This document shows, piece after piece, positions 2,981 to 33,826 of a stretch of DNA of 64,000 bases. The first letter of the stretch is position 1. Each line of letters begins with the position of its first letter. The notes under the pieces were generated by a model that saw only the letters and a list, made by a program, of their open reading frames with translations, did no database searches and was not told the DNA's origin. Origin of the DNA: Candidatus Woesearchaeota archaeon (GTDB taxonomy: Archaea; Nanobdellota; Nanobdellia; SCGC-AAA011-G17; JACPIM01); contig CAYWEX010000002.1 in NCBI GenBank assembly GCA_964457785.1, positions 15,691 through 79,690 of the forward strand, written 5' to 3'. Made by a program: the position numbers and the translations under genes.

Positions 2981-3008
2981 TTAACCTTTTTATAAAAAGC
3001 TTAACCAA
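2981..3008 (-). repeat. Stem-loop element copy (RNA sense UUGG-UUAAGCUUUU-UAUA-AAAAGGUUAA), ends 1 nt before the ATG at 2979
   Basis: Family member: 10-bp stem with a central G.G mismatch. A U-A pair replaces the consensus G-C pair. Confidence 0.65.
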
Positions 3009-5001: not shown

Positions 5002-5024
5002 CAATTCTTTGGGTTTTTTTACTT

Positions 5025-5399
5025 CTATAATGTTATCAGTTTTTCAAAATGTTTATCTCTAGAAACCATAATCGCGTCATTATCTCTTGAAATGACGGCG
5101 TGTAAAACATCTCCTTTAGGTATATCTTTTTGAGAAGCTAATTTTTTTGATTCTTTTTCTTGATTTCTAGTTATGTGCACTCTTTTTATGTTTCCTAACC
5201 TAAATATTCTAAAAATCGAATTTATTTCGTCTAAATTATAATTTAAATCTTTTAATTCTTTAATGTGAAGATCAGATAAAATAATGGTGACATTCTCTTC
5301 AATTAACTTTAATATTAATTTGAGGGCTTCTTCACCATTTTCGCCTCTTTTTTCATAAGCATCTAATAAAATAGATGTATCTAAATTATAAGTTGTCAT
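5025..5399 (-). CDS. PIN-domain (VapC-like) nuclease
   Basis: LDTSILLD N-terminal acidic motif and SRDNDAIMVSRDKHF distal acidic residues; ~124 aa. Confidence 0.7.
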   Translation of the reverse strand: MTTYNLDTSILLDAYEKRGENGEEALKLILKLIEENVTIILSDLHIKELKDLNYNLDEINSIFRIFRLGNIKRVHITRNQEKESKKLASQKDIPKGDVLHAVISRDNDAIMVSRDKHFEKLITL

Positions 5400-7366: not shown

Positions 7367-8473
7367 TTATATTTCTCCTCTAATTTTTTTATCAGTAAGC
7401 TGTCTTAAGATATCTGCTGCTCTCTGCATTTCATCTTTTTCAGCATTAACTTTTTTCATTTCAACTTTAGTATCATTATTTTCTTTTACTTTTTCAATTT
7501 CTTCTTTTAAGGAATCTTTTTGAAAAGAAGCTTCACCAAGAGCTGGTTTTTCTTCAACATTTTTCGGTTCTTCTTTCAATTCTTCAGTTTTTTGTTCTGG
7601 TTCTGAAACTATTTCTTCAGAAATTTCATTAACTTCTTGTTTTACTTCCTCTTTTGATATTTCTATATTTTTTGTTTCAACTGAATCTAAATTTGGTACT
7701 TTTGTTTCTAAAGCTGATGCTTCTAAATAGGCTTTCTTCACTAATATTTCTATAGTTTCCTTTACTGGATATGATATGTTTACTGCTAAGTTTATAGATT
7801 CATGGAAAGCTAATTTTAAATTGTTTAGGAATTCCTCTTCATTTATATCCAAGATGTCTTTTGTCAATATTTCTCCATTTTTATAGGTTAATATTAGATT
7901 AAAACCAATTTCCATTGGCGCAATTCCTAGTTTGCTTAGAATACTAGCTACTTTTGAATTTATTTCTTCGCCTTCTCTTACAATTAGTTTATCTTCTTTT
8001 ATATGTATTTTTCCTTCTAAAACTTGAGTCTTAATTCCTAGCTGTCCGAATTCACCAATCATAGGGCCTGGTGTAAATTGTGTTGGACCTGCATTTATTG
8101 TAATGTCTTTATTTGCAATCTGACCTGGCTTAGCAAAAGCACTTGATTTATTTTTATTTAAGTTTTTTTGCAGCTTGAATTCATCTTCATTTGTGAATAA
8201 TAATGCTGGTGATCCCTTAATCATGTCTCCTATTTTGGAAATTTCTTTTTTTTCTTTTTCCAATTGAGACAATGCTATTTTTATCAATCTTTTTTTAGTG
8301 ACTTTTATAGAGACCTTATCTTTTAATTTATGCTTTATTTTCAAAAACTGGCTGGCTGGGAGATTTTGAAGATTTAAAACTCCAATTACATTATGCTTTC
8401 TAATTAAATCTTTTAATTGCTCTATTTCTTTCTTTTTATATTCACTTACATGAGCTACTTGGACTTGCTGCAT
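7367..8473 (-). CDS. rpl10: Ribosomal protein uL10 (P0) with a long K/E-rich C-terminal extension
   Basis: N-terminal P0 domain (EYKKKEIEQLKDLIRKHNVIGVLNLQNLPASQ...). Sits between L1 and L12. Confidence 0.88.
   Translation of the reverse strand: MQQVQVAHVSEYKKKEIEQLKDLIRKHNVIGVLNLQNLPASQFLKIKHKLKDKVSIKVTKKRLIKIALSQLEKEKKEISKIGDMIKGSPALLFTNEDEFKLQKNLNKNKSSAFAKPGQIANKDITINAGPTQFTPGPMIGEFGQLGIKTQVLEGKIHIKEDKLIVREGEEINSKVASILSKLGIAPMEIGFNLILTYKNGEILTKDILDINEEEFLNNLKLAFHESINLAVNISYPVKETIEILVKKAYLEASALETKVPNLDSVETKNIEISKEEVKQEVNEISEEIVSEPEQKTEELKEEPKNVEEKPALGEASFQKDSLKEEIEKVKENNDTKVEMKKVNAEKDEMQRAADILRQLTDKKIRGEI
7511..7539 (-). repeat. Stem-loop element copy inside the uL10 coding tail (translated ALGEASFQKDS)
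   Basis: CTTGGTGAAGCTTCTTTTCAAAAAGATTCC; stem GAAGCUU/AAGAUUC with a G.A mismatch. Shares an extra ~15 nt (GAAGAAAAACCAGC) with the uS3 copy. Confidence 0.7.
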
Positions 8474-8501
8474 TTAAACTTTTAGAAAAGTTTAATCAAA
8501 C

Positions 8502-8521
8502 ATAAGAACCTAGGTTCTTAT
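8502..8521. promoter_or_regulatory. Perfect 20-bp palindrome ATAAGAACCTAGGTTCTTAT in the L1-L10 intercistronic spacer
   Basis: Self-complementary by direct reading. As RNA it gives an 8-bp stem with a CUAG loop. Confidence 0.6.
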
Positions 8522-9277: not shown

Positions 9278-9306
9278 CGAACCTTTTTTGGGAAAAGCTT
9301 CACCAA
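9278..9306 (-). repeat. Stem-loop element copy (UUGG-UGAAGCUUUU-CCCAA-AAAAGGUUCG) 13 nt upstream of the uL1 ATG
   Basis: 10-bp stem with a G.G mismatch. One C-G pair of the consensus is replaced by U-A. Confidence 0.8.
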
Positions 9307-10270: not shown

Positions 10271-10298
10271 TTAATCTTTAGTTTTGTTTAAAACAAAA

Positions 10299-12254
10299 AT
10301 GCTCAGCTATGATTTAGAACAATTTGTAAATGATCCTGAAAAGCAGAGGTCAAGAGATTTAATTAGAGAACAAGTTGAAAAAACTTTTCCAGGAGACAGA
10401 TCTAATTTAAGAGTTGCTTTTTTTACTGGCCCTTCTTTAAAAGAAAGCGAAATATATGAAAAAGCTGGAATTAAACCTGGAAATATTTATGGGATAGAAA
10501 GAGATTCAGAAGCGTTTAATTTGGCACAATTAGAAAATCAGAGAAGGTCTTTAGAAAAAAAAATTGTCCTTTATCATGGGGATTTTGAGAGATTTGTAAG
10601 ACATGGAACTAGACTAGATGTAATTTCCTTGGATTATATTCAGACTTATGGTTCTGAAGTAATTAATGGAATTAATTCTGTTTTTGATACTCCTGGAATT
10701 TTGGCTGACAAGACTTTGCTTGTTGTTAATACGCAAGCAAGAAGAGAAGCTGCTGTTAATCAAATGAGATTGAGATTTTTGACTTTTGCAGGAATGGCAT
10801 TGAATGGAGCAGATGCTGCTTTATGGTGCGAAGTTATAGATGAAATTTCTGGGTCTCCCAAAAAGTTTGACAGGCAACATCTCGAAAACATGGATGAAAT
10901 TTTAGTTGATACTTTGATGGGCCCATTAATTCAAAGACATAAAGGGGTAAATGTAAAAAGCACTGAGTATTTGGCTTATTCACGTTATGGTTTATTTCAA
11001 GAAGTTTTGATCAGAGCTGCTTATCCTTTATTGAGGGGACTTCAAGGAGTTAGAATAGATGATTTATTTTATAATGAACATTTTGGTGAAGAAGTCAAAA
11101 AAGCTGGAAGCGAAGAAAAGAGAGAAAGTTTTAGATTTTTAGCCAAGGCTTTGGATGATATTTTAGTAGAAAAAGGAGATTCTTTATCAGATCCAGTTAG
11201 ATTAGCATATGTCGGATCTTTATCAAGCGGACGTTTTTTCCCGCTTCTTTTTAAAATGCTTTCAAAAAATCTTCCTATGCCAAATATTGAGTTAAAGGAT
11301 AAGCAAAAGATTCATTCGGCTTATTTATATAACAGGAGTGTAGCAAGAATGATTAGTTCTTATTCTACATTTAGCTATACTAGCCAGAGTAAAACACCAA
11401 TGCTTATGCATTTTTTTAATTTGGAAAGAGCACATAAACTTGATGAATTTGTAGAAGGAATGCAAGGAGGTCAAAAAACAAGAGAAACAGCACAAACTTT
11501 TAATAATCTTTTTTTTAGCATGGATCTAAAATATAAGGAATTTAGAAATTTTTTAGTAGAGAAATTTGGAAGAGTTTCAATGAAAGATATTTTCTCCATG
11601 GATGTTAAGACTTTAAAATCTTTTAGAGCTGGCCAGGAAATAATTAATAAGTTTTTTTCCAAAGAAGGAAAAAATGAAAAGTCTTCTATTTCCAAATTTA
11701 TGAAAGAGACAACATCTTTTATTGATAGAGATATAACTTTCCAAATGCAGGAATCAAAAATTATGCTTGAATATGTAGACTTTGTCAAGGGAATAGGAAG
11801 TAAATTAAGAGAAGAAGAATTAAGTAAAATAGAAAAGAAGAAATCAAGAATAGAGGGAGAAAATATGAATGAACCTAAGAAAGAACTGGAATATAAGTCT
11901 CCTGGGAAGTCCCTGGAAGAACCAGCTCCTGGGTTGAGTATTGATGGCTATTTAGATAGAATTAAAGATAAATATCTTAATGGTGATGCTGATCAAAGAT
12001 TTAAAGTTACAAAAGGGCTGGAAAAAGTAATTGGAAATATAAATAATGGAGATACGAAATTTGAGAATCTTTCTGATCTTTCTCCTGAAGATAAAAACAA
12101 AATAAGAAAAATGAATTTAGACGGTAAAACTCCAAAGGAAATTCATACAACACATTTTAAAGAAAGCAATGTAAGTGTTTATCAGATTGCAGCTATTTGT
12201 GCATGGAATAAAATATGGAGAAACAAGTATCCTGATAGAATACAGGTTTCTTAA
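10299..12254 (+). CDS. Large uncharacterised protein; N-terminal Rossmann/methyltransferase-like pattern and C-terminal HTH-like segment
   Basis: ATG at 10299 is preferred over the TTG at 10284. Strand-loop pattern RVAFFTGP / IYGIERD / LYHGDFERF / LDVISLDY / LLVVNTQ. C-terminus DGKTPKEIHTTHFKESNVSVYQIAAI. Confidence 0.5.
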   Translation: MLSYDLEQFVNDPEKQRSRDLIREQVEKTFPGDRSNLRVAFFTGPSLKESEIYEKAGIKPGNIYGIERDSEAFNLAQLENQRRSLEKKIVLYHGDFERFVRHGTRLDVISLDYIQTYGSEVINGINSVFDTPGILADKTLLVVNTQARREAAVNQMRLRFLTFAGMALNGADAALWCEVIDEISGSPKKFDRQHLENMDEILVDTLMGPLIQRHKGVNVKSTEYLAYSRYGLFQEVLIRAAYPLLRGLQGVRIDDLFYNEHFGEEVKKAGSEEKRESFRFLAKALDDILVEKGDSLSDPVRLAYVGSLSSGRFFPLLFKMLSKNLPMPNIELKDKQKIHSAYLYNRSVARMISSYSTFSYTSQSKTPMLMHFFNLERAHKLDEFVEGMQGGQKTRETAQTFNNLFFSMDLKYKEFRNFLVEKFGRVSMKDIFSMDVKTLKSFRAGQEIINKFFSKEGKNEKSSISKFMKETTSFIDRDITFQMQESKIMLEYVDFVKGIGSKLREEELSKIEKKKSRIEGENMNEPKKELEYKSPGKSLEEPAPGLSIDGYLDRIKDKYLNGDADQRFKVTKGLEKVIGNINNGDTKFENLSDLSPEDKNKIRKMNLDGKTPKEIHTTHFKESNVSVYQIAAICAWNKIWRNKYPDRIQVS

Positions 12255-12280
12255 TTTTATTTTTGAGTATTCTAAATTAA

Positions 12281-12556
12281 TTAAGCTATATCTCTGTGAG
12301 TTTCATACATAAATGAAGCTTCTTTGCTGTGCTTTTTTAGTTCTTTTACAACCTGCTTAAAAATATCATTTGAAGTAACTGTTTTTTTAGTTTTAATCCA
12401 TTTTTTTACACAAGCTGTTACTTTCTCACATATTTTTTCAGTTTGTTTTTTATTAAAATTACAACAGCTTAGGGTAGCTTCATAACATGAACCATATATT
12501 TTCCTTTCATCAAATTTTTCCTTATGACCTTTTCTTTTTACAATGTGCTCAACCAT
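12281..12556 (-). CDS. Stand-alone ATP-cone domain protein
   Basis: VKRKGHKEKFDERKIYGSCYEA matches the ATP-cone N-terminal pattern (V.KRdG..E.Fd..KI); 91 aa. Confidence 0.65.
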   Translation of the reverse strand: MVEHIVKRKGHKEKFDERKIYGSCYEATLSCCNFNKKQTEKICEKVTACVKKWIKTKKTVTSNDIFKQVVKELKKHSKEASFMYETHRDIA

Positions 12557-12584
12557 AAACCTTTTTAGGAAAAAGCTTTACTAA
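12556..12584 (-). repeat. Stem-loop element copy (UUAG-UAAAGCUUUUU-CCU-AAAAAGGUUUA); the last stem base is the A of the ATG
   Basis: 11-bp stem with a G.G mismatch. An A-U pair replaces the consensus G-C pair. Confidence 0.65.
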
Positions 12585-12607
12585 AAAAACTTTTTCTTTT
12601 GACCTCC

Positions 12608-13318
12608 TTAACCGAAATTTATTGTTCCATTTGCTATTAATATTAACAGCCAGCCCATGCTAATTAACAACAATCCAGCCATTAATCTCATATACGCCCT
12701 GTTTTCAAATTTCCATTTTTTAATATCATACAATTTCTTTCCAGCAGACACTAATAATAAAATAATAATTAATGGCATTACAAATATTATATTGTATAAA
12801 ATTAACAACATTAAAGCTGTGAAATCAAAATATTGGGATAATAAAGTTATAATTGCCAAATATGGGGCTCCTGTACAAGGAAGCTCTACTGCTGAAACAA
12901 AAGCACCAAGAAAAATTACTCCAAATGCTGATGTATTTGATGCAAGCTTGTCTAATTTTTTTGAGAAAAAATAAGGGATAGCCAAAGAGAAGCCTTTACC
13001 ATACCAGAAAAAATCTTTTAATTCCAATAATCCTGCCAAAATAATTAGAGTTCCAACTGTTATTGAAATATATTCTGTAACAACCAGAGGAATTTTTGTG
13101 AAAAAGTAAACTAGACCCAAACCAGCCAGTAAATAAACAGTTAAAACTGAAGCAATATATAAAAAGCCTAAGAATAATAATTTCTTAATTGATCTGTGGG
13201 CTCCTAATAAAACTGAAATCATTAAAATTAAAACTCCAATAGCACAAGGATTAATTGAATCTATTCCTGCTGTTATTAATACAGTTGTTATAGTTGGAAT
13301 ATATGCTTCAACTGCCAC
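12608..13318 (-). CDS. ccdA: CcdA/DsbD-family thiol:disulfide electron-transfer membrane protein
   Basis: Two membrane-embedded Cys motifs (DSINPCAIGVL and ELPCTGAPYL); ~6 TM. Confidence 0.8.
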   Translation of the reverse strand: MAVEAYIPTITTVLITAGIDSINPCAIGVLILMISVLLGAHRSIKKLLFLGFLYIASVLTVYLLAGLGLVYFFTKIPLVVTEYISITVGTLIILAGLLELKDFFWYGKGFSLAIPYFFSKKLDKLASNTSAFGVIFLGAFVSAVELPCTGAPYLAIITLLSQYFDFTALMLLILYNIIFVMPLIIILLLVSAGKKLYDIKKWKFENRAYMRLMAGLLLISMGWLLILIANGTINFG

Positions 13319-14087
13319 TTAACTCACCTTTTCTTATTGATGTTTTATAACTTTCACAACTATGCTTTGTTTTTTCTTTTCTTTCATCAAATTCTATAAT
13401 AATACAATCTCCTGGGGGAACAGCTGTATAGGGAGAAATTACATAATTATCATAATCTTCTAATTTTTCCTGATTGTAAACCCAGTTTTTTGTATTTTCT
13501 GGATTAATTACTTTTAACAAGAAAACCTGAGTAAATGCTTTTTTTCCATTGCATTTATCGATGTTTAATTTTTCATTATTATGATTAATAAACATCCAGC
13601 GATCTTTTTCTATTTCTGCATCAACCTGTTCAAAAAATTCATGCAAATTTATATCTTTCAAATCAGTTACAACACCTTCAACATGGATTCTATTATCATT
13701 GTGCTCATGATAAACTGGAGATCCTACCCTGTTAAAGAATCCTTCTGGATCTATTAAATCTAATTTTTCTCCACAAGCCCAAAATTCAAAATCAGCATGC
13801 CAGTGAACTGGGCCTTTTGTTATTGAGTTCATATTTAATGAAATAGTTGAATACGATAAGTAAAATGTTGTTGTTAAAGTGATTAATACCATTAATGAAA
13901 ATAAAATTGTTTTTTCATTCTTTTTCAGCTTGTCTTTATGCAGGGAGTAAATTATTAATAAAAGAATTAGAATAAAAGAACCAGCACTTAATTGAAGAGA
14001 ATAATCTTGTTTTTCTATTTCCTGTCCATGAGCAAATACATTAGTTAATAAGATTACAAGTAAAAGAATTAAAAATTTCCACCTCAT
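13308..14087 (-). CDS. Exported/membrane-anchored His-rich protein, unknown function
   Basis: Signal-like N-terminus and further hydrophobic segments, then VHWHADFEFWACGE...VYHEHNDNRIHVEG. 11-nt overlap with ccdA indicates an operon. Confidence 0.5.
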   Translation of the reverse strand: MRWKFLILLLVILLTNVFAHGQEIEKQDYSLQLSAGSFILILLLIIYSLHKDKLKKNEKTILFSLMVLITLTTTFYLSYSTISLNMNSITKGPVHWHADFEFWACGEKLDLIDPEGFFNRVGSPVYHEHNDNRIHVEGVVTDLKDINLHEFFEQVDAEIEKDRWMFINHNNEKLNIDKCNGKKAFTQVFLLKVINPENTKNWVYNQEKLEDYDNYVISPYTAVPPGDCIIIEFDERKEKTKHSCESYKTSIRKGELSGS

Positions 14088-16932: not shown

Positions 16933-16961
16933 TAAATTTTTTTAAAAAAAAGCTTTACCAA
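16933..16961 (-). repeat. Degenerate stem-loop element copy (UUGG-UAAAGCUUUUU-UUU-AAAAAAAUUUA), 1 nt upstream of the prefoldin ATG
   Basis: Keeps the UUGG-UAAAGCUU 5' half; the 3' half has decayed to A/U. Two mismatches. Confidence 0.4.
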
Positions 16962-16967
16962 GAAAAG

Positions 16968-17651
16968 CTATTTCTTTGCTCCTTTTGATTTTTTAGCTTT
17001 AGTTTCTGTTTTAGTTTTTTTAGCTTTGGGTTTTTCTATTTTAACTTTAGGCTCTTTTTTTGCCTCTTTTTTCTCAACAACTTTTTCTTCCTTTTTTATT
17101 TCTTTTTTCTCAGGAAGAACTTTCTTTTCCTTCTTCTGCTTCTCTTTTATTTCATAACCCAATACTTTTAACTCTCTTTTTATTGTTTCAGAAGCTTCAT
17201 TCTTTTTTATCTCTAATTTTTTATCTAAAGTTTTTAAATGAAGAACGTTACATTTTCTTCTTCTTACCTGGCCATCAATTAATACAAAATTATCATCTAT
17301 TTTATCAACAACAACACATACTGAACCTGCTTCTCTTCCTGCTGTTTTTATACAAATCTGGCCTAAATCTAATGGAAGCTCTTTAAGATCTTTGAATTTT
17401 TCTATTATTTTTTCTCTTGAACAGTTTGAACATAAGTTTCCACCATAAGGTCTAGCTACTGTTTTTTGGGAATAAGGCAGGTTTCTAAAATCAGAAGGCC
17501 TTTCTCGAGGAATACCAATTAATTCTTTATGGCAATTACCGCATTTTGCTATACTTGGTTTTCTTTTTTCATAATGAGTAACTAACCTATTTCCAGGAGT
17601 ACGAACTTGAATTCTTCTTAAGCTTCTTGTTGCCTGTGGTTGTATTGCCAT
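16968..17651 (-). CDS. Fusion of ribosomal proteins eL34 (N-terminal) and eL14 (C-terminal) with a Lys-rich tail
   Basis: aa 1-~88: RSLRRIQVRTPGNRLVTHYEKRKP...CGNC...GGNLCSNC (eL34 zinc ribbon). aa ~95-165: GQICIKTAGREAGSVCVVVDKIDDNFVLIDG...RRRKCNVLHL (eL14 KOW). Single uninterrupted frame. Confidence 0.8.
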   Translation of the reverse strand: MAIQPQATRSLRRIQVRTPGNRLVTHYEKRKPSIAKCGNCHKELIGIPRERPSDFRNLPYSQKTVARPYGGNLCSNCSREKIIEKFKDLKELPLDLGQICIKTAGREAGSVCVVVDKIDDNFVLIDGQVRRRKCNVLHLKTLDKKLEIKKNEASETIKRELKVLGYEIKEKQKKEKKVLPEKKEIKKEEKVVEKKEAKKEPKVKIEKPKAKKTKTETKAKKSKGAKK

Positions 17652-19973: not shown

Positions 19974-20001
19974 TGATCTTTTTGTGAAAAAGCTCAACCA
20001 A
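19974..20001 (-). repeat. Stem-loop element copy (UUGGU-UGAGCUUUUU-CAC-AAAAAGAUCA), 1 nt upstream of the uL15 ATG
   Basis: Stem retained after loss of one nucleotide from each arm; G.A mismatch. Confidence 0.55.
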
Positions 20002-21305: not shown

Positions 21306-21328
21306 GAACCCTTTTAACAAAAGCGTTC
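21306..21328 (-). repeat. Stem-loop element copy (GAACGCUUUU-GUU-AAAAGGGUUC), 2 nt upstream of the uS5 ATG
   Basis: An extra C-G pair is inserted symmetrically in both arms; G.G mismatch retained. A second small hairpin CACGGAAAACCGTG lies at 21328..21341. Confidence 0.55.
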
Positions 21329-21345
21329 ACGGAAAACCGTGGCTT

Positions 21346-21859: not shown

Positions 21860-22315
21860 TTATTTTCTCTTTACAAATAAGTTATTTTCATCTAAATATA
21901 GTTTCAAGTGTCTTTTACTTCTAAACTGGTTGCCTTTTATCATTCTGTAAATTTTAGTGTAAGTTTCTCGTGCAACCAAATCTTTTAATCTTAAGCTTTT
22001 AATAAATTTTCTCTGGACTCTTACTTTTGTGATCCAAGCTCTTTTTCTTGGTGTTCTTGCTGTTTTTGTTCCTTTTCTTGAACCGGGACCTTTTCTTTTA
22101 CCTTTTCTCTTTTGAGCTCTTAATTTATTTGCCCTGAAAGATGAAATTCCATGTTTTTGTTTTGCTTTTATTGCACCATCATTTATTAACTTCCTGATAT
22201 CTGCTTTTGTGATAGCTTCTTTTATTTCATTTAATCTTGTATTGTCAAACCAAACTCTATTTTGACCTGATTTCAAGATGTCTGCGGATATTCTTTTCTG
22301 AACATTTAATTTCAT
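21860..22315 (-). CDS. rpl19e: Ribosomal protein eL19
   Basis: NVQKRISADILKSGQNRVWFD...RKGKRKGPGSRKGTKTAR. Confidence 0.9.
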   Translation of the reverse strand: MKLNVQKRISADILKSGQNRVWFDNTRLNEIKEAITKADIRKLINDGAIKAKQKHGISSFRANKLRAQKRKGKRKGPGSRKGTKTARTPRKRAWITKVRVQRKFIKSLRLKDLVARETYTKIYRMIKGNQFRSKRHLKLYLDENNLFVKRK

Positions 22316-22764
22316 TGCTTTCCTCTTAATGCTGATTCAACTTTTCTTGTTATTTGTGATAGTTCATATAATGTTAATTCTCTTTGATGATCAGCAGGAC
22401 CAAATGTTGAATCTATTTTCTTTTCTATATCATCAAATTCTACTTCTATAGCTGCTTCTAATCTTCTCTTTGGTTTTAGATTGGAAACTATTCTAATTTT
22501 TTCTACTTGTGTTTGCTTTGATCTAGTATTTTGATAATCTTCAGCAATAATTTTTGCTACATAATTAAATACTAAGTCATGAGGGAGTAATGTTCCATCT
22601 TTTTTAGAAAACATAAATGCAACTGGAAATTTTAAAGGCTTTTTTCCTTTATCTCTAAAAACGCTATAACGTATATATAGGCCTACATTGTCTGCTATTG
22701 ATCCACAAGACTCCATAGCTGAAACATCATAAGTAAATGTTTTTGTTCTTAATTTTGTTGTCAT
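22312..22764 (-). CDS. Uncharacterised 150-aa protein inserted between eL32 and eL19
   Basis: Intact ORF with ATGA stop/start overlaps on both flanks (22761-22764 and 22312-22315); no known motif. Confidence 0.6.
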   Translation of the reverse strand: MTTKLRTKTFTYDVSAMESCGSIADNVGLYIRYSVFRDKGKKPLKFPVAFMFSKKDGTLLPHDLVFNYVAKIIAEDYQNTRSKQTQVEKIRIVSNLKPKRRLEAAIEVEFDDIEKKIDSTFGPADHQRELTLYELSQITRKVESALRGKQ

Positions 22765-27605: not shown

Positions 27606-28395
27606 TTTCTTCTACTTTTTCCACAATTACTTCTTCTGTTTTTTCTTCTACAATTTCTTCTTTGACTTTTTTTGATCTTTTCTTTTTCTCTTTTACTTCT
27701 GAACCTTCTTTGGGAGAAGCTTCACCAAGTGCTGGTTTTTCTTCTACAATTTCTTCTTTTATTTCTGGCTCTGGTTTTTTCTCGACTAGATCCATGTTTT
27801 TATCTAAAATTAATATTTTATCTGGAAGCACTATGTCTGGAGTCATTACACTTACTTTTATTCCAATTACACCAGATTTTAAATTAGCTTGAGCAATTGC
27901 TTTTTTTACTTTATCAGATGCTATATAACCTGATTTTTTTAAATGTCCTGCTTTAAATCTCCAGCTTCTTGCTCTTGCACTTGGGACTTTTCCTGAAATA
28001 ACTATTTCGGCTCCAAGAGCACCAGCATTAATTATATCCTGCAAGGTTTTGTAACCAACTGACTTAAATCTCTTTGAACCAAATCTCACCAGAGTTGATG
28101 ATATTTTATCTGCAATGAAATTTGCATCGAGCATAGGATTTTGCAATTCACCAATTTCAATTTGTGGATTTTCCATTTTGAATTTTCTCTTCAAAACATT
28201 TGTTAGTTTCCTTATGTTTTCTCCTTTTTTACCCACTACTAGACCTGGCCTTGTTGTGTAGATAATTACTTTTTCACCTAAGGGAGTTCTTTGAATATCT
28301 ATATGTGAAAATCCAGTTCCACCAAATTCTCCTTTAATATATTCCTGAATCTGGAATTCCTTTATTTTTTGACTGACAAATTGTCTTTCTATCAT
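27592..28395 (-). CDS. rps3: Ribosomal protein uS3 with a K/E-rich C-terminal extension
   Basis: KH domain GLVVGKKGENIRKL plus the S3 C-terminal domain. Confidence 0.9.
   Translation of the reverse strand: MIERQFVSQKIKEFQIQEYIKGEFGGTGFSHIDIQRTPLGEKVIIYTTRPGLVVGKKGENIRKLTNVLKRKFKMENPQIEIGELQNPMLDANFIADKISSTLVRFGSKRFKSVGYKTLQDIINAGALGAEIVISGKVPSARARSWRFKAGHLKKSGYIASDKVKKAIAQANLKSGVIGIKVSVMTPDIVLPDKILILDKNMDLVEKKPEPEIKEEIVEEKPALGEASPKEGSEVKEKKKRSKKVKEEIVEEKTEEVIVEKVEENENQ
27700..27728 (-). repeat. Stem-loop element copy inside the uS3 coding tail (translated ALGEASPKEGS)
   Basis: UUGG-UGAAGCUUCU-CCCAA-AGAAGGUUCA: 9 of 10 positions paired with a G.G mismatch. 29/30 nt identical to the uL22 copy. 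Confidence 0.8.
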
Positions 28396-28877
28396 TTTTT
28401 TGAACCTTCTTTGGAAGAAGCTTCACCAAGCATTTTTTTGGGTTTTTCTTCAACTTTTGATTTTTGTTTTTCTGAAGCATAAATTTCAACATCAGTTCTT
28501 TTCATTCTTCTTCCTTTATGCCTGCTGTAATGCCATGATACTGATCCTGAATTTGCAATTGCTTTTTCTATTTTCAACAATTCTGAATTTAGGCCTTTAT
28601 TTTTTGCATTGCCTTCTAATGTTTGAAGCAATTGTAAAAAGTGCATTGATGCTTTTTTAGGATAAAAACCAGGACCTTGATGTCCTGCTTTGTGTCCTCT
28701 CTTATGATAAAATCTTTTTAATTTGATTACTTCTTTTTCTTCCAAAACATTGTTCAATACTTTTCTTATTTTTGCAATTTCCTTGCCTTTCATAAATGAA
28801 CAAATTTCAATTGCATGCTTTGTTGAAATAGGCAAACCTGATCCAGATACTTTTGCTAAATTTTTTTCTTCTGTCAT
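28392..28877 (-). CDS. rpl22: Ribosomal protein uL22
   Basis: LPISTKHAIEICSFMKGK...; operon position. Confidence 0.9.
   Translation of the reverse strand: MTEEKNLAKVSGSGLPISTKHAIEICSFMKGKEIAKIRKVLNNVLEEKEVIKLKRFYHKRGHKAGHQGPGFYPKKASMHFLQLLQTLEGNAKNKGLNSELLKIEKAIANSGSVSWHYSRHKGRRMKRTDVEIYASEKQKSKVEEKPKKMLGEASSKEGSKK
28401..28429 (-). repeat. Stem-loop element copy inside the uL22 coding tail (translated MLGEASSKEGSKK*), 5 nt upstream of the uS3 ATG
   Basis: UUGG-UGAAGCUUCU-UCCAA-AGAAGGUUCA. Confidence 0.8.
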
Positions 28878-28878
28878 T

Positions 28879-29277
28879 TTACTTCTTTGGAGATGCTCCT
28901 GAACTAGATCTTGTAGCTCCTATACCAGGGGCTGAATGCTGAACTCTCCTTCTTGTTATTACAAATTCGCCCAAGTAATGGCCTAATTTTTCTACTGTTA
29001 TTGCAACAGGAACAAATTCCTTTCCACTATAAACATGTATTATTGTACCTAAAAATTCAGGTATGACTATCATATCTCTGCAGTGAGTTTTGATATTTTT
29101 CTTTATTTTTCCCAGCTTGAATTTTTTTATTTTTTCAATTAATTTTTTATGCTGGTCTGGAAGACCTCTCTTTAAATTTCTTCTCTGCCTTGAGGTTGTT
29201 AAATTCATGAAATCAATTAGAGTCATATCTTTGAATTCTCTTTCTGTCTTTCCTTTATATGTTGGTTCTTTAGCCAT
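28879..29277 (-). CDS. rps19: Ribosomal protein uS19
   Basis: HCRDMIVIPEFLGTIIHVYSGKEFVPV...GEFVITRR. Confidence 0.9.
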   Translation of the reverse strand: MAKEPTYKGKTEREFKDMTLIDFMNLTTSRQRRNLKRGLPDQHKKLIEKIKKFKLGKIKKNIKTHCRDMIVIPEFLGTIIHVYSGKEFVPVAITVEKLGHYLGEFVITRRRVQHSAPGIGATRSSSGASPKK

Positions 29278-29283
29278 TTTTAA

Positions 29284-29562
29284 TTAGTCCTTATTATTTT
29301 TTTTATGTCTCTTAATTTCTTCCAAAATTCTTTTTTCAACTTCCCCAATTTTTTCATCATCACCGAATAAAACTACTGTCATATAATTATCTGGATAGGA
29401 CCGAGCTTCTGTTTTTATAGCAATATCTTGAAAGAAATGAACATATGTTCCACGTGATATTTCTCTGATAATTGTCTCTGCTCCCATCATATTCATCATA
29501 CCATTAAAAACAAGAGGATTACAGAAATTTTCTTGTGGTCCGTTATAAATTTCTTTAGCCAT
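29284..29562 (-). CDS. Uncharacterised 92-aa protein inserted between uL2 and uS19
   Basis: Intact ORF; 1-nt gap after the uL2 stop and 6 nt before the uS19 ATG; no known motif. Confidence 0.55.
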   Translation of the reverse strand: MAKEIYNGPQENFCNPLVFNGMMNMMGAETIIREISRGTYVHFFQDIAIKTEARSYPDNYMTVVLFGDDEKIGEVEKRILEEIKRHKKNNKD

Positions 29563-29563
29563 T

Positions 29564-30286
29564 TTACTTTCTACCTGTTCTCCTTGCAGCGACTTTACCT
29601 ACTTTTCTTCCTGGTGGAGCATTTCTACTTACTACTTTAATCTTTGCGTGCATTCTTCCTCTACCAGAACCATAAGGATGATTCAAAGCATTCATAGCAA
29701 CTGCTGAAGTTTGAGGATATATTTTTCCTCTTGTTCTCATATAATGCCATCTTTTTCCAGCTTTTACAAACGGCTTGTCTTTTCTTCCGTGACCAGACAA
29801 AGTTCCTATTGTTGCCCTGCAATCTGGCTGGAATTTTTTTTGTTTTTTTGACGGCAACTCAATTAAAATTGAATCTTTAGTTGAGCTGATTATTTTTGCA
29901 AATGTTCCTGCAGCTCTGCAGAATTTACCGCCATCTCCTGGGGAGCTTTCTATATTATATATTAAAGTTCCCTCTGGAATTACTTTTAATGGAATTGTAT
30001 TTCCGTTGTTAATGGCTGAAGTGAAACCTGATTCTATAATATCATTGACTCTTATATTCAAAGGAGCCAGAATATATGCTTCTTCATTATTAGCGAATTT
30101 TATTTTTGCCAAAGGTGTTGTGTGGCCAGGACACTTTACTAAATCGATAACTTTGCCTGAAATTTTTGATGATTTTTCAATTTGATCATATTTTCTGTAT
30201 TTTACATCTGCCAAAAAATGACCAGAGTTAGCTCTATAAACTGGTGTTCCACGTCCACGTCTTCTGATCATTATTCTCTTTCCCAT
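29564..30286 (-). CDS. rpl2: Ribosomal protein uL2
   Basis: GTLIYNIESSPGDGGKFCRAAG...HPYGSGRGR. Confidence 0.95.
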   Translation of the reverse strand: MGKRIMIRRRGRGTPVYRANSGHFLADVKYRKYDQIEKSSKISGKVIDLVKCPGHTTPLAKIKFANNEEAYILAPLNIRVNDIIESGFTSAINNGNTIPLKVIPEGTLIYNIESSPGDGGKFCRAAGTFAKIISSTKDSILIELPSKKQKKFQPDCRATIGTLSGHGRKDKPFVKAGKRWHYMRTRGKIYPQTSAVAMNALNHPYGSGRGRMHAKIKVVSRNAPPGRKVGKVAARRTGRK

Positions 30287-30610
30287 TTATAATTGAGCTC
30301 CTACATCAGCTAATATTTTTACTAGTCTTGATCTTTCGCTTTCTGGAAATATTTGAATTCTATCTTTTGTTAAATGCATCATGCTGAATGAGGATATTGG
30401 TTTGTAAGTTACAATTCCATCTAATTCCATTATCCAATGATCTCGTGCTATGATAAATTCATTTTGTTTTCCTCTTTTTTTAAAAACGTGCTCTCTTTTT
30501 GTTTCTGATAATCCTAAATATTCAGCTTCTTCTATTTCTCCGTTTGGATATTTTTCTACACGATAAACATTTCCTTTTGTGAGTGCTGGTTTTTTAAAAT
30601 ATTCTTGCAT
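30287..30610 (-). CDS. Uncharacterised 107-aa protein inserted between uL23 and uL2
   Basis: Intact ORF abutting the uL2 ATG (0-nt gap) and 1 nt after the uL23 stop; no known motif. Confidence 0.55.
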   Translation of the reverse strand: MQEYFKKPALTKGNVYRVEKYPNGEIEEAEYLGLSETKREHVFKKRGKQNEFIIARDHWIMELDGIVTYKPISSFSMMHLTKDRIQIFPESERSRLVKILADVGAQL

Positions 30611-30611
30611 T

Positions 30612-30869
30612 TTACATTAGTCCTAGTTTTGTTGCTACATCCATGGCATTATTTTCCTTATTTAATTTGACGTATGCTTTTTTTCCTTCTACTCCTATTA
30701 GAGTATTTATTTTTTGAACTTTCACGTTGAACAGTTCTTCAACTGCTTTTTTTATATCTGGTTTTTTTGCTTTTCTGTCTACTATAAAAACAATTTTATT
30801 TTCTGTTTCCATTAACTTGAAACATTTTTCAGTTGCTACAGGATATTTTATTATTTCGTGACTTTCCAT
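30612..30869 (-). CDS. rpl23: Ribosomal protein uL23
   Basis: IIKYPVATEKCFKLMETENKIVFIVDRKAKKPDIKKAVE. Confidence 0.9.
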   Translation of the reverse strand: MESHEIIKYPVATEKCFKLMETENKIVFIVDRKAKKPDIKKAVEELFNVKVQKINTLIGVEGKKAYVKLNKENNAMDVATKLGLM

Positions 30870-31748
30870 TTACTTTTTTACCTTTGAACCTTCTTTTGAA
30901 GAAGCTTTACCAATAACCTTTTTTGAAACTTCTTGCTTTATTTCATTTGTAAATAATTTTTTTTCATTTAATATATCAATTGCGTCTTTTGTGAATAAAG
31001 TTAATCTTCCTGGTGTTCCACCTGGCGCTAATAACTCGACATTGATATTATTTATTAAAGTACAGTCAATTCCTTTAATTGAAGTTAAAACTTTTGAAAC
31101 CTCATGCTTTTTACCGAGAACAAATAAGGGACCTTTTTTATTTTGATATTTTCTTCCTCTTTTACTTCCCTGGCCTGCCTTTACTTTTTTTACATCCAAT
31201 CTTTGAAGTTCATTTTCAAGACCAATTTTTTCCAAGAATTTTAGTAAATCTTTTGTTTTCTTTAGATCATATAATTTATTATCAATAATTAAGGGCAGGT
31301 ATTTGAATAAATGGCCACGAGCTTTTACTAATTCCTGATTTATTACTGCGCTTAATGCAGACCTGATTGCTTTTCTGTTTTCTTTTTTATTTATTTTTTC
31401 ATCATAAATTTTGTAAGCTTTTGGAACATGAGCTCTTCTACCTTTGTATGTTCCTGGAGCAAATGCACCCATCCATTGGAATTGTGATCCTCTTCTTAAC
31501 AATATTTTTCTAGGTGCTCTGGAAATCCCTTTACCATAAGAACCTCTAAAGTCGCGTCTTCTTCTTGATATTTTTGCAGAAACTCTCTGACCTGCAGTTG
31601 GATAAGAACCATAAGGTTGTTTTTTATTTGATCTAATTGCCAAGAAAGCTCTTTGAATTAAATCTTTTCTTAAAGGCTCATTAAACTGACTAGGCAATTC
31701 AACTGAACCTGATTTACTTCCATCTGTGTTATATATATCTGCTTTCAT
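30870..31748 (-). CDS. rpl4: Ribosomal protein uL4
   Basis: L4/L1e family core (SYGKGISRAPR...GRRAHVPK); operon position. Confidence 0.9.
   Translation of the reverse strand: MKADIYNTDGSKSGSVELPSQFNEPLRKDLIQRAFLAIRSNKKQPYGSYPTAGQRVSAKISRRRRDFRGSYGKGISRAPRKILLRRGSQFQWMGAFAPGTYKGRRAHVPKAYKIYDEKINKKENRKAIRSALSAVINQELVKARGHLFKYLPLIIDNKLYDLKKTKDLLKFLEKIGLENELQRLDVKKVKAGQGSKRGRKYQNKKGPLFVLGKKHEVSKVLTSIKGIDCTLINNINVELLAPGGTPGRLTLFTKDAIDILNEKKLFTNEIKQEVSKKVIGKASSKEGSKVKK
30885..30913 (-). repeat. Stem-loop element copy inside the uL4 coding tail (translated VIGKASSKEGSKVKK*), 15 nt upstream of the uL23 ATG
   Basis: UUGG-UAAAGCUUCU-UCAAA-AGAAGGUUCA; 27/30 nt identical to the uL22 copy. Confidence 0.75.
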
Positions 31749-33357: not shown

Positions 33358-33498
33358 ATGGCGCAAGAAACGGTTACAATAACAAAAGAAGAATACGAAT
33401 TGCTTAAAAAGCAGTCCACAATAGATTTAGCTTTACTAAAACAATTCGTAGAAAGTTTTAAAGATATTAAAGAAGGTAGAATTAGAAGAGTTAAGTAG
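33358..33498 (+). CDS. Small antitoxin-like ORF (46 aa: MAQETVTITKEEYELLKKQSTIDLALLKQFVESFKDIKEGRIRRVK)
   Basis: Manual translation; below the ORF-track cutoff. Its 3' end overlaps the RelE-like gene by 8 nt in convergent orientation. Confidence 0.35.
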   Translation: MAQETVTITKEEYELLKKQSTIDLALLKQFVESFKDIKEGRIRRVK

Positions 33499-33826
33499 GC
33501 AGTTTATCTTCACTGATTAATTTTGTTATCTCTTCCTTAAATAAATCAAATAAAAACTTTATGGTGTTAATTATTTTTTGTTGGTCATTTTTATCACTAG
33601 TAGCAACCATAAAAACAGCATTCATTTCTTCATAAATAATAAAATAGATTCTATATTTTCCATAACGTTTTTCTCTAAACCATTCATAATCTATTTTATC
33701 GCCCAAATAAGGATTTTCTACAAGCTGATCTTCTATTTTATCAACGCGATTTAGAAAGTCTTTATCAGATTTCTTTAGCTCATCATCAAATCTTTTAGAA
33801 TGATAAACTTTGAACCTCTTTTCCAT
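33491..33826 (-). CDS. RelE/ParE-superfamily toxin-like protein
   Basis: Size and pattern fit the family: ...LVENPYLGDKI...EKRYGKYRIYFIIYEEMNAVFMVATSDKNDQ. Confidence 0.6.
   Translation of the reverse strand: MEKRFKVYHSKRFDDELKKSDKDFLNRVDKIEDQLVENPYLGDKIDYEWFREKRYGKYRIYFIIYEEMNAVFMVATSDKNDQQKIINTIKFLFDLFKEEITKLISEDKLPT

What the first reader, a model, noticed from the sequence alone, without database searches (positions are those of the whole stretch)
27700..30913. Four unrelated ribosomal proteins share a C-terminal 'LGEASxKEGS' peptide because the stem-loop element lies in their coding tails
The tails read uS3 ...EEKPALGEASPKEGSEVK..., uL22 ...KKMLGEASSKEGSKK*, uL4 ...KKVIGKASSKEGSKVKK* and uL10 (7511-7539) ...EEKPALGEASFQKDSLK.... 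Each is encoded by the element, always in the same frame (CTT GGT GAA GCT TCT ... AAA GAA GGT TCA). Nucleotide identity is near-perfect (uS3 vs uL22 29/30; uL4 vs uL22 27/30). The uL10 and uS3 copies share a further ~15 nt upstream (GAAGAAAAACCAGC[T/A]). Two explanations are open. A nucleic-acid element needed near the next cistron may have been absorbed into, and now constrains, the upstream gene's 3' end. Alternatively, a short module may have spread into the K/E-rich tails by duplication or gene conversion and the peptide itself may be functional. Both would be unusual for universally conserved r-proteins.
Basis: seen in the sequence. Interest (0 to 1): 0.7.

Follow-up and report, generated by a model that had tools for sequence, protein, structure and literature searches.

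The report
Hairpin repeat translated in ribosomal-protein tails
Four ribosomal proteins of a tiny DPANN (Woesearchaeota-like) archaeon share the tail peptide LGEASxKEGS because a roughly 30-base hairpin repeat, scattered mostly between genes in this lineage, has landed in frame in their floppy C-terminal tails.

Summary
The four tails (uS3, uL22, uL4, uL10) carry near-identical 28-30-nt copies of one element in one frame, where 0 matches are expected by chance.

The element is not special to ribosomal proteins. A covariance model finds 9 copies in the window, all on the minus strand. Five are non-coding and end 0-14 nt before a start codon.

The usual form is TTT-TTGGTRAAGC-TTTTT-loop-AAAAA-GRTTY. 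It lies between genes, in tRNA introns, beside tRNA ends and inside the P3 stem of RNase P RNA. The stem covaries (outer pair GC/AU/UA/CG) and keeps a purine-purine mismatch.

Among relatives the tail copies are intact with no synonymous change in the stem codons, decayed, or cleanly absent. One relative nested among carriers lacks all tail copies and has no replacement. The uL10 copy occurs only in this lineage.

Best reading: a REP/RPE-like dispersed hairpin repeat selected as nucleic acid, with the peptide as a translated passenger. What the hairpin does is unresolved; I favour a cis-acting intercistronic RNA hairpin. Its 3' end abuts start codons in 19 of 36 cases, which hints at a role next to the start codon.

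I rate this a new variant of a known kind, of moderate interest.

The parts
27701..27728 (-). Element copy (C-type, TTGGTGAAGCTTCTCCCAAAGAAGGTTC) inside the uS3 C-terminal tail. It encodes LGEASPKEGS, 109 nt before the uS3 stop.
   Evidence: (39.2 bits). Intact at the same place in L126 and L124, decayed in L002, absent in L001.
28402..28429 (-). Element copy (C-type) in the last 12 codons of uL22. It encodes LGEASSKEGS and ends 6 nt before the uS3 ATG.
   Evidence: 47.5 bits. Intact in L126, L127 and L002; 5' arm decayed in L124; absent in L001 and in P0003, P0007, P0009.
30886..30913 (-). Element copy (C-type, with an A.C mispair in the outer stem) in the uL4 tail. It encodes IGKASSKEGS and ends 15 nt before the uL23 ATG.
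   Evidence: 45.5 bits. Intact in L124, possibly remnant in L002, absent in L126 and L001.
7512..7539 (-). Element copy in the uL10 tail, with a partly mispaired 3' arm. It encodes LGEASFQKDS, 145 nt before the uL10 stop. It is an insertion specific to this lineage.
   Evidence: 38.4 bits. Absent from all the closest uL10 homologues checked. The empty-site comparison with L128 and L129 shows a clean in-frame gain of about 30 nt.
9279..9306 (-). Non-coding copy in the 5' UTR of uL1, followed by the Shine-Dalgarno sequence GGAGG and the ATG at 9264.
   Evidence: 51.7 bits. Conserved at the orthologous site in L129. A canonical promoter lies about 75 nt upstream of the ATG.
12557..12584 (-). Non-coding copy that abuts (0 nt) the ATG of an ATP-cone protein gene (12281-12556).
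   Evidence: (51.3 bits). Orthologous copy in L102.
16934..16961 (-). Non-coding, degenerate copy between eL34 and prefoldin, 2 nt before the prefoldin ATG.
   Evidence: 39.4 bits. Orthologous copy in L129.
19974..20001 (-). Non-coding copy between uL30 and uL15, 1 nt before the uL15 ATG. Its outer stem TTGAGC...GATCA carries two compensatory pairs.
   Evidence: (42.8 bits). The junction is filled in L124 and L002 and empty (1-nt gap) in L001.
2982..3008 (-). Non-coding copy (outer pair U-A), 2 nt before the ATG of the membrane-protein gene 2377-2979.
   Evidence: (44.6 bits).
21306..21336 (-). Sister family-2 hairpin (TTTTCCGTGAACGCTTTTGTTAAAAGGGTTC, also with a G.G mismatch), 2 nt before the uS5 ATG.
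   Evidence: fold -11.5 kcal/mol. At the same junction L001 has family 1, L002 has both in tandem, and L129 has family 2 nested in the loop of family 1.
8474..8500 (-). Sister family-3 hairpin (TTTGATTAAACTTTTCTAAAAGTTTAA) that abuts the uL10 ATG. A perfect 14-nt palindrome lies just upstream at 8505-8518.
27636..27764 (-). A 33-nt direct repeat (27636-27668 and 27732-27764, 91% identical) that brackets the uS3 element. It is a local duplication of KEEIVEEK and is not present in L126.

Best explanation
The shared peptide is a translated passenger. The underlying feature is a short dispersed hairpin repeat of about 33 nt: TTT-TTGGT-R-AAGC-TTTTT-loop(2-5 nt)-AAAAA-GR-TT-Y. It is characteristic of this Woesearchaeota/Nanoarchaeota (DPANN) lineage and is comparable to bacterial REP elements and Rickettsia RPEs.

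Shown:
- It has many copies, and most are non-coding.
- It folds as a 9-10-bp stem with a conserved purine-purine mismatch and a conserved single-stranded 5' tag, TTGGT.
- It occurs at gene boundaries, in tRNA introns and in the P3 stem of RNase P RNA.
- Copies are gained, decay and are lost cleanly between close relatives.
- In the K/E-rich, fast-evolving C-terminal extensions of uS3, uL22, uL4 and uL10, the variant without T5 runs (TTCTT/AAGAA) lies in one of its two open frames and reads LGEASxKEGS.

Inferred:
- Selection or homogenisation acts on the nucleic acid, not on the peptide.
- The element is most likely a cis-acting hairpin in polycistronic RNA. Its 3' end sits 0-2 nt from the next start codon. 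It may act in processing, in stability or in start-codon access (translational coupling).
- It spreads by an unidentified copy mechanism, either transposition of a hairpin or templated copying between tails.
For: 1. Copy number and distribution.
- The covariance model finds 9 copies of at least 38 bits in the window; the next best hit scores 13 bits. Five of the nine are intergenic.
- I counted 141 distinct copies in the sequence held. About 70% are intergenic by ORF context.
- Eight contigs show a copy in a tRNA intron; ARAGORN called five of them, the other three rest on my reading of cut-off contigs, and some contigs are duplicates. Six copies lie 2 nt after a tRNA 3' end.
- One copy lies inside RNase P RNA P3.

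2. Structure.
- 98.8% of cells are paired.
- 4 of 9 pairs show changes on both sides.
- The outer pair is GC 28, AU 17, UA 6, CG 1.
- None of 500 shuffles reached the observed covariation score.
- The internal mismatch is G.G 43, G.A 9, A.G 3, G-C 1.

3. Orthologous tails.
- In four genomes with an intact uL22 copy, all 9 stem codons are identical and only the loop codon varies. Codon identity at conserved residues elsewhere in the gene is 0.65-0.75.
- The flanking tail codons differ freely.

4. Gain and loss.
- L001 lacks the uL22, uS3 and uL4 copies and the copy at the uL30|uL15 junction. Yet it groups with L124, which carries them.
- Decayed copies occur in L124 (uL22) and L002 (uS3).
- The uL10 copy is found only in the window.
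- Family 2 is nested inside the loop of a family-1 copy in L129.

5. Frame.
- Frame 3 of the G-variant holds a TGA.
- Common T-type loops give TAA in the LGEAS frame, so the non-coding copies cannot encode the peptide.

6. Position.
- Of 36 copies with a sense ORF start within 40 nt, 19 lie 0-2 nt from it.
- In 11 copies the stop codon of an opposite-strand ORF overlaps the same 3' end.
- The 5' end never abuts a gene.

7. Precedent.
- Bacterial REPs also lie in ORF ends and donate stop codons (PMC3733652).
Against: - No mobilising enzyme was found. Only 10 unannotated ORFs of the window were scanned, and none is a transposase.
- There are no target-site duplications and no inverted doublets.
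- Covariation could partly reflect descent of subfamilies rather than selection on pairing, and the alignment used for counting was fitted by the model.
- Predicted RNA hairpins are only moderately stable (-0.4 to -12 kcal/mol). Several are no better than shuffles; z-scores range from +1.8 to -2.4.
- Orientation relative to neighbouring genes is mixed in the metagenome set (34 sense starts against 33 convergent ends). The intron copies called by ARAGORN are all antisense. Both points argue against a single sense-RNA function.
- Synonymous-site conservation in the tails rests on few taxa. I roughly estimate P of about 0.003 that no synonymous change would be seen by chance.
- Translation of the tails is inferred from intact frames only.
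Confidence: 0.75

Rival explanations
1. Obligatory regulatory hairpin for the next cistron. The element masks or presents the ribosome-binding region of the downstream gene (uS3, uL23), so that gene is translated only when ribosomes finishing uL22 or uL4 melt the hairpin. It lies in coding sequence because the operon has no spacer left.
For: - The uL22 and uL4 copies end 6 and 15 nt before the next ATG.
- The non-coding copies end 0-14 nt before an ATG.
- 19 of 36 copies lie 0-2 nt from a start codon.
- Stem codons are invariant in orthologues.
- Orthologous intergenic copies persist between the window and L129.
Against: - L001 has none of these copies and no substitute. Its uL22/uS3 genes overlap as ATGA and its uL30|uL15 gap is 1 nt.
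- The uS3 and uL10 copies are 95 nt or more from the next start.
- L124 has lost the 5' arm in uL22, and L126 lacks the uL4 copy.
- About half of the metagenomic copies are antisense to their neighbours.
Confidence: 0.25
2. Purely selfish or neutral mobile DNA. The hairpin has no host function and is seen only where insertion is tolerated: spacers, disordered tails, peripheral RNA loops and introns.
For: - Patchy presence among close relatives, decayed copies, a nested insertion and tandem copies.
- Occurrence in tRNA introns and in RNase P P3.
- AT-rich copies occur in contigs of 47-58% GC.
Against: - Copies are retained at orthologous intergenic sites, with near-identical sequence, across genomes that differ at 9-16% of r-protein residues.
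- These genomes are very compact.
- The 3' end abuts start codons in a strongly non-random way, while the 5' end does not.
- No transposase was identified.
- The element is almost absent from viral contigs (3 hits).
Confidence: 0.3
3. Functional peptide module. LGEASxKEGS is a short linear motif, for example a docking or modification site, that several r-proteins acquired by duplication or conversion. Nucleotide identity then reflects recent copying.
For: - The same frame is used in all four tails.
- The peptide is conserved in the uL22 and uS3 tails of several relatives.
- The uL10 copy looks copied from the uS3 copy together with its flank.
Against: - Most copies are non-coding, and many carry a stop in that frame.
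- Copies also occur antisense in other K-rich tails, where they encode unrelated peptides (L109, L079).
- There are no synonymous differences in the stem codons, while the loop residue varies (S, P, F).
- The peptide is lost outright in L001 and degraded in L124 and L002.
- Only 2 of the 3 frames are open, so shared frame use is weak evidence.
Confidence: 0.05
4. Protein-binding site on double-stranded DNA. The palindrome is an operator for a global regulator, or a look-alike of the archaeal promoter elements BRE (TFB-recognition element) and TATA box. The 5' arm RAAGC-TTTTT resembles the local promoter RAAGC-TTTAWATA.
For: - The 5' arm resembles the canonical promoters of this genome.
- The palindromic layout has an A/T-tract centre.
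- The position is close to gene starts.
Against: - The spacing is wrong for a promoter. Canonical promoters place AAGC 30 nt before the ATG; the element places it 18-20 nt before the ATG in the commonest arrangement.
- The two half-sites differ systematically (G against C). Covariation keeps pairing rather than a fixed half-site sequence.
- Loops are strand-asymmetric: C 187, T 106, G 59, A 25.
- Copies occur inside genes, introns and RNase P RNA.
Confidence: 0.1

Closest known systems
Bacterial REP elements (repetitive extragenic palindromes; REPIN/RAYT systems)
   Same: - Imperfect palindromes of 20-40 nt in many dispersed copies.
- A conserved short tag on one side of the hairpin.
- A conserved imperfection in the stem.
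- Mostly between genes, but sometimes inside ORF ends or donating stop codons (PMC3733652).
- Persist at orthologous sites.
- Thought to act as RNA hairpins in transcripts.
   Different: - The host is an archaeon (DPANN).
- The tag is TTGGT preceded by a T-run, not GTAG or CGTC.
- The stem is AT-rich.
- No inverted doublets: every locus with several copies has them on one strand.
- No RAYT gene was seen.
- The 3' end abuts start codons far more often than chance would give.
Rickettsia palindromic elements (RPEs)
   Same: Palindromic repeats inserted in frame into protein-coding genes, and also into RNA genes, without destroying them. The encoded peptide is a passenger (background in PMC3733652; otherwise my own knowledge).
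   Different: - RPEs are about 100-150 bp and add 30-50 residues.
- They are bacterial.
- They are not concentrated in front of start codons.
- Here the insert is 10 residues and confined to disordered tails.
Intercistronic hairpins and translational coupling in bacterial ribosomal-protein operons
   Same: A stem-loop that overlaps the end of one cistron and the initiation region of the next, which could tie downstream translation to upstream translation. This matches the positions of the uL22 and uL4 copies.
   Different: - Those structures are operon-specific and bound by a specific r-protein.
- This element is generic and genome-wide.
- It has no Rfam match.
- It is dispensable in a close relative.
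Mobile C/D box sRNA genes and tRNA-intron elements of Nanoarchaeum and other archaea
   Same: A similar distribution: next to tRNA genes, within tRNA introns and overlapping mRNA ends (PMC3491384).
   Different: There are no C (RUGAUGA) or D (CUGA) boxes and no guide regions. The element is a simple hairpin half the size of a C/D box sRNA.

Membership tests
REP / REPIN-RAYT | Short (20-40 nt) imperfect palindrome able to form a stem-loop | tested here: met
   A 28-nt core. The stem has 9 counted pairs and 98.8% of cells are paired, with compensatory changes.
REP / REPIN-RAYT | High copy number, dispersed through the genome | tested here: inconclusive
   9 copies in 64 kb. The count per complete genome is unknown.
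REP / REPIN-RAYT | Conserved GTAG (or CGTC) tetranucleotide at one end | tested here: not met
   The conserved tag is TTGGT preceded by TTT.
REP / REPIN-RAYT | Cognate single-copy Y1 (HUH) transposase gene (RAYT) flanked by REPs | tested here: inconclusive
   None among the 10 unannotated window ORFs scanned with Pfam. The rest of the genome is not available.
REP / REPIN-RAYT | Frequent inverted pairs (REPIN/BIME organisation) | tested here: not met
   All loci with several copies have them on the same strand. Tandem pairs are direct.
REP / REPIN-RAYT | Mostly extragenic, with some copies inside ORF ends or supplying stop codons | tested here: met
   The stop codons of 11 opposite-strand ORFs overlap the 3' end of the element.
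Rickettsia palindromic elements (RPE) | Palindromic repeat of about 100-150 bp | tested here: not met
   The element is about 33 nt.
Rickettsia palindromic elements (RPE) | In-frame presence within otherwise intact protein genes | tested here: met
   Four tails in the window, plus orthologues. The reading frames continue to conserved C-termini. Translation itself was not tested.
MITE | Terminal inverted repeats with target-site duplications, 70-300 bp | tested here: not met
   The element is too short. Empty-site against filled-site comparisons show no duplication.
Ribosomal-protein autoregulatory mRNA leaders (Rfam) | Match to a curated family; specific to one operon | tested here: not met
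   No Rfam hit at gathering score in the window. The element is also found beside unrelated genes and in RNA genes.
Archaeal BRE/TATA promoter | TATA box centred about 26 nt upstream of the transcription start (here AAGC + 30 nt = ATG of leaderless genes) | tested here: not met
   In the commonest arrangement the AAGC of the element is 18-20 nt from the ATG.
C/D box sRNA | C box RUGAUGA and D box CUGA framing guide sequences | tested here: not met
   The boxes are absent from the consensus.

The most novel reading that the evidence does not exclude
The hairpin may be an RNA punctuation mark. An endonuclease, for example one of the tRNA-processing enzymes RNase Z or RNase P acting on a minihelix-like stem, would cut polycistronic transcripts at the 3' foot of the hairpin. 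That would release downstream cistrons as leaderless mRNAs that start at or within 2 nt of AUG, and would also define tRNA ends. This is analogous to tRNA punctuation in mitochondria. It would explain why the 3' end of the element, and only that end, abuts start codons and tRNA 5' ends. On this view the copies in the uL22 and uL4 tails are punctuation marks that the upstream ORFs have grown over.
Probability: 0.12. Interest if true: 0.85.

Novelty: new variant of a known kind. Interest (0 to 1): 0.55.

Why it matters
The finding shows that even universally conserved ribosomal proteins can carry translated copies of a genomic repeat in their lineage-specific tails. Shared tail peptides in DPANN proteomes should therefore not be read as functional motifs without checking the DNA.

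More broadly, it exposes a conserved family of REP-like hairpins in Woesearchaeota/Nanoarchaeota genomes, together with at least two sister families. These hairpins fill nearly every spacer of the ribosomal-protein cluster. They sit directly against start codons, and they also occur in tRNA introns and in RNase P RNA.

I found no description of REP-like repeats in archaea in two targeted searches of the held library. The element gives a concrete, testable handle on how these ultra-compact genomes organise polycistronic expression and on what mobilises short hairpins in archaea.

Tried and rejected
- Promoter. The 5' arm resembles the local BRE/TATA promoter (RAAGC-TTTAWATA), but the distance to the ATG is wrong in either orientation.
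- Terminator avoidance as the reason for the C-type (TTCTT/AAGAA) copies in coding tails. T5+ runs are not depleted on the coding sense strand: 229 observed against 208 +/- 11 in codon-order shuffles. T-type copies also occur in tRNA introns and in or next to the 5' part of RNase P RNA.
- Shine-Dalgarno function of GGTGA. Positions 6-7 covary with positions 27-28 and are often not GA. uL1 has its own GGAGG.
- K-turn and C/D box. The sequence requirements are not present; I checked this by inspecting the consensus.
- Known RNA family. There is no Rfam hit.
- Replication-strand polarity. Copies within a locus are always co-oriented, including L060, where the local gene directions differ. Across 47 loci, however, orientation shows no link to the majority gene strand (22 against 24) or to GC skew (24 against 23). 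This remains unresolved.
- An alternative helix between the TTTTTGG flank and a CC-AAAAA loop. Only 45 of 141 loops contain CC.
- Virus association. Only 3 hits in the viral collection.
- Transposase in the window. None among 10 unannotated ORFs.
- G.U against A.C asymmetry, to identify the functional strand. There are too few cases: after setting aside two chance coding hits, 3 A.C against 2 G.U.
- Locating the source record of the window by exact protein look-up failed.

Full report
**Setting**

The window is AT-rich (about 29% GC). It carries the archaeal ribosomal-protein (r-protein) supercluster on the minus strand. The run from uL3 to uL15 with SecY lies at about 32.7-18.2 kb. eL34, prefoldin, uL1, uL10 and P1 lie at about 17.6-7.0 kb.

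The closest genomes found are a Candidatus Woesearchaeota MAG (L001) and a 'Nanoarchaeota' MAG (L002). Both are 85% identical in uL2. The organism is therefore a DPANN archaeon of the Woesearchaeota type.

The 30-mer CTTGGTGAAGCTTCTnnnAAAGAAGGTTCA occurs at 27700-27729 (uS3 tail), 28401-28430 (uL22 tail) and, with two mismatches, 30885-30914 (uL4 tail). Chance expectation is 0.00 matches. A fourth copy lies in the uL10 tail at 7512-7539.

**The element is not special to these tails**

Repeat finding and pattern searches turned up further minus-strand copies that are not translated.

I built a covariance model from 88 copies and ran it without filters. It gives nine hits of 38-52 bits in the window; the next best hit scores 13 bits, and all nine are on the minus strand.

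The five non-coding copies each end just before a start codon:
- the membrane-protein gene 2377-2979, 2 nt
- uL1, 14 nt, with a GGAGG Shine-Dalgarno sequence in between
- an ATP-cone protein, 0 nt
- prefoldin, 2 nt
- uL15, 1 nt

Two sister hairpin families with the same layout abut the start codons of uS5 (21306-21336) and uL10 (8474-8500). In effect, every spacer longer than about 35 nt in this gene cluster consists of such hairpins.

**Distribution outside the window**

The viral collection gave 3. In all the sequence held I counted 141 distinct copies.

The typical form is TTT-TTGGTRAAGC-TTTTT-(2-5 nt, C-rich)-AAAAA-GRTTY. By ORF context about 70% of copies are intergenic.

Contexts involving RNA genes:
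- Eight contigs show a copy in a tRNA intron. ARAGORN called five of them; the other three rest on my reading of cut-off contigs, and some contigs are duplicates. The five called by ARAGORN are all antisense to the tRNA.
- Six copies lie 2 nt beyond a tRNA 3' end (antisense), and two lie 0-7 nt before a tRNA 5' end (sense).
- In L119 a copy forms a 46-nt insert in the P3 stem-loop of RNase P RNA (Rfam RF00373, 144.6 bits).

Copies also occur in contigs of 47-58% GC.

**Structure**

On 56 distinct model hits, 98.8% of cells form standard pairs. Four of nine pairs show changes on both sides. The outer pair occurs as GC 28, AU 17, UA 6 and CG 1. None of 500 shuffles reached the observed covariation score. 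Sliding the 3' partners by one column drops pairing to 71-83%.

One position inside the stem is almost always a purine-purine mismatch: G.G 43, G.A 9, A.G 3, and G-C once. The TTGGT tag and a T-run on the 5' side are conserved and unpaired.

Two caveats apply. The alignment was fitted by the model, and subfamilies related by descent can mimic covariation. Predicted RNA stabilities are also modest, from -0.4 to -12 kcal/mol, and several copies fold no better than shuffles.

**A distinct subfamily sits in the tails**

All the coding copies belong to a 'C-type' with three linked changes: T to C at position -1, T to C at position 13, and A to G at position 21. The result is TTTC-TTGGTGAAGC-TTCTT...AAGAA-GGTTC. 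This keeps the pairing and removes every T5 run on both strands.

The same subfamily occurs outside coding sequence in RNase P P3 (L119), in a tRNA-like RNA (L086, L107) and before genes (L040).

I tested whether avoidance of oligo-T terminators explains this. It is not supported, because T5+ runs are not depleted in coding sense strands (229 observed against 208 expected).

**Orthologous tails**

uL22:
- The copy is intact in the window, L126, L127 and L002. All nine stem codons are identical, and only the loop codon differs (TCC, CCA, TCC, TCT).
- Elsewhere in the gene, codon identity at conserved residues is 0.65-0.75.
- The tail around the element is otherwise highly variable.
- In L124 the 5' arm has decayed (VAGKVSSKEGS). 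P0006 keeps only KEGSKK.
- P0003, L001 (P0007), P0009 and all more distant homologues lack the copy.

uS3: intact in the window, L126 and L124 (TTAGT variant); decayed in L002; absent in L001.

uL4: intact in the window and L124; possibly a remnant in L002; absent in L126 and L001.

uL10: present only in the window. All the closest homologues checked (57-71% identical), including those of the L124 and L002 genomes, lack it. Comparison with L128 and L129 shows a clean in-frame gain of about 30 nt just before the conserved SLKEEI. It carries the same CCAGCWC flank as the uS3 copy, which suggests templated copying between tails.

**Gain and loss**

Distances over 1046 aligned residues of six r-proteins give the grouping ((window, L126), ((L001, L124), L002)). 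L001 has none of the tail copies, and its uL30|uL15 spacer is a single nucleotide. It is nevertheless nested among carriers. Either it lost at least four copies cleanly, or the others gained copies in parallel at the same sites.

At the uL18|uS5 junction four genomes show four arrangements:
- family 1 alone
- families 1 and 2 in tandem
- family 2 inside the loop of family 1
- family 2 alone

Against that turnover, intergenic copies before uL1, prefoldin, uL15 and the ATP-cone gene are retained at orthologous sites with near-identical stems.

**Position relative to genes**

Of 36 copies with a same-strand ORF start within 40 nt, 19 lie 0-2 nt from it. In 11 further copies the stop codon of an opposite-strand ORF overlaps the same 3' end.

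The 5' end never abuts a gene. Divergent starts cluster 30-36 nt away, which is the room a canonical promoter needs.

Orientation shows no overall link to the direction of neighbouring genes, to the majority gene strand or to GC skew. Yet copies within a locus are always co-oriented. This includes L060, where one copy is sense and the other antisense to the local genes. I cannot explain this.

**Interpretation**

The peptide is a by-product. The entity under selection or homogenisation is a nucleic-acid hairpin repeat whose closest analogues are bacterial REPs and Rickettsia RPEs. REPs likewise occur in ORF ends and supply stop codons (PMC3733652).

The element differs from REPs in several ways:
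- its host domain
- its tag (TTGGT, not GTAG or CGTC)
- the absence of inverted doublets
- its tight association with start codons

No cognate transposase has been found.

The K/E-rich tails are permissive sites. One of the element's two open frames gives a hydrophilic G/E/A/S/K peptide. An antisense copy sits in another K-rich tail (L109).

I favour a cis-acting RNA hairpin at cistron boundaries, because of the abutment to start codons and the retention at orthologous spacers. Its exact role is inferred, not shown; it could be processing, stability or coupling. Its dispensability in L001 argues against an essential role at the r-protein junctions.

A functional peptide is very unlikely. A promoter or operator on double-stranded DNA is unlikely because of the spacing, the systematic half-site asymmetry and the strand-biased loops.

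**Verdict**

It is a lineage-wide hairpin repeat that has been translated in disordered tails. It is a new variant of a known kind, of moderate interest. It carries one attractive but unproven possibility: that the hairpins punctuate polycistronic transcripts.

Noticed in passing
window 21306-21336 (-); L129 1875-1951; L002 18195-18310; L001 18020-18095: A second hairpin family (TTTTCCGTGAACGCTTTT..AAAAGGGTTC, also with a G.G mismatch) sits 2 nt before the uS5 start. At this one junction four genomes show four arrangements. In L129, family 2 is nested inside the loop of a family-1 copy.
   Followed up: partly
window 8474-8518 (-): The uL1|uL10 spacer consists of a perfect 14-nt palindrome (AGAACCTAGGTTCT) followed by a third hairpin family (TTTGATTAAACTTTTCTAAAAGTTTAA) that abuts the uL10 ATG. 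The same family occurs in L020 and L059.
   Followed up: partly
L008 3828-3946, L017, L039, L042, L091 (also L104, L108, L120): tRNA genes (Glu, Ser, Pro and others) have introns of 45-62 nt made largely of the element. In all cases called by ARAGORN the element is antisense to the tRNA.
   Followed up: partly
L119 118-464 (+); L099 118-408 (-): In L119, archaeal RNase P RNA carries the element as a 46-nt insert in the P3 stem-loop. In L099 the model aligned the element itself to the 5' part of the RNA, so its position there is uncertain.
   Followed up: partly
L086 725-815; L107 1175-1262: After a TATA-like box comes a transcript-like unit of about 85 nt: GGTGAATCA..., then a C-type element, then a T-arm-like GGGGTTCGAATCCC and ...CCGCACCA. 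No 5' tRNA half is detectable and neither ARAGORN nor Rfam calls it. It could be a split or degenerate tRNA, or a tRNA-like RNA.
   Followed up: partly
window 16968-17651 (-): A single 227-aa ORF combines eL34 (Pfam Ribosomal_L34e, 3.9e-28) with a KOW-containing segment that looks like eL14, followed by a K/E-rich tail. The L129 orthologue (225 aa) is also a single gene.
   Followed up: partly
window 29284-29562 (-), 30287-30610 (-), 22312-22764 (-): Three small ORFs (92, 107 and 150 aa) with no Pfam match sit inside the r-protein operons: between uL2 and uS19, between uL23 and uL2, and between eL32 and eL19. Counterparts without Pfam hits exist in L001 and L124. L126 has in addition a 197-aa pentapeptide-repeat protein in the uL23-uL2 gap.
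   Followed up: partly
window 9470-14087 compared with L129 8476-9237: The window carries about 4.5 kb that the syntenic L129 region lacks, between the methyltransferase and uL1. It holds a 266-aa protein with an internal 306-nt direct repeat (83% identical) and an RHH-like motif, a 651-aa protein of unknown function, the ATP-cone gene and two membrane proteins. It may be an inserted island.
   Followed up: no
window 7367-7450 (-) and uL10 homologues P0031-P0046: uL10 (P0) in this clade ends with a strongly conserved ...DEMQ(R/K)AADILRQLTDKKIRGEI. The usual acidic stalk C-terminus, ...GLGSLFG, is present on P1 (7052-7351).
   Followed up: no
window 27636-27668 and 27732-27764 (-): A 33-nt direct repeat (91% identical, spacing 96 nt) brackets the uS3 element and duplicates KEEIVEEK. 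It is absent from L126, so it is a recent local duplication in the tail.
   Followed up: partly
all loci with two or more copies (window, L124/L129, L002, L004, L058, L060, L110, L123): Element copies within a contig are always on the same strand, in 19 of 19 pairwise agreements. This holds in L060 even though the local gene directions differ. No correlation with the majority gene strand or with GC skew was found. This is unexplained.
   Followed up: partly
window 4741-5399 and 33491-33826: Probable toxin-antitoxin genes lie near the r-protein clusters: an RHH-like 86-aa ORF next to a 124-aa ORF that looks PIN-like (my reading of the sequences, not scanned), and a ParE-like toxin (Pfam PF05016, E = 2e-4, just under the curated cut-off).
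   Followed up: no
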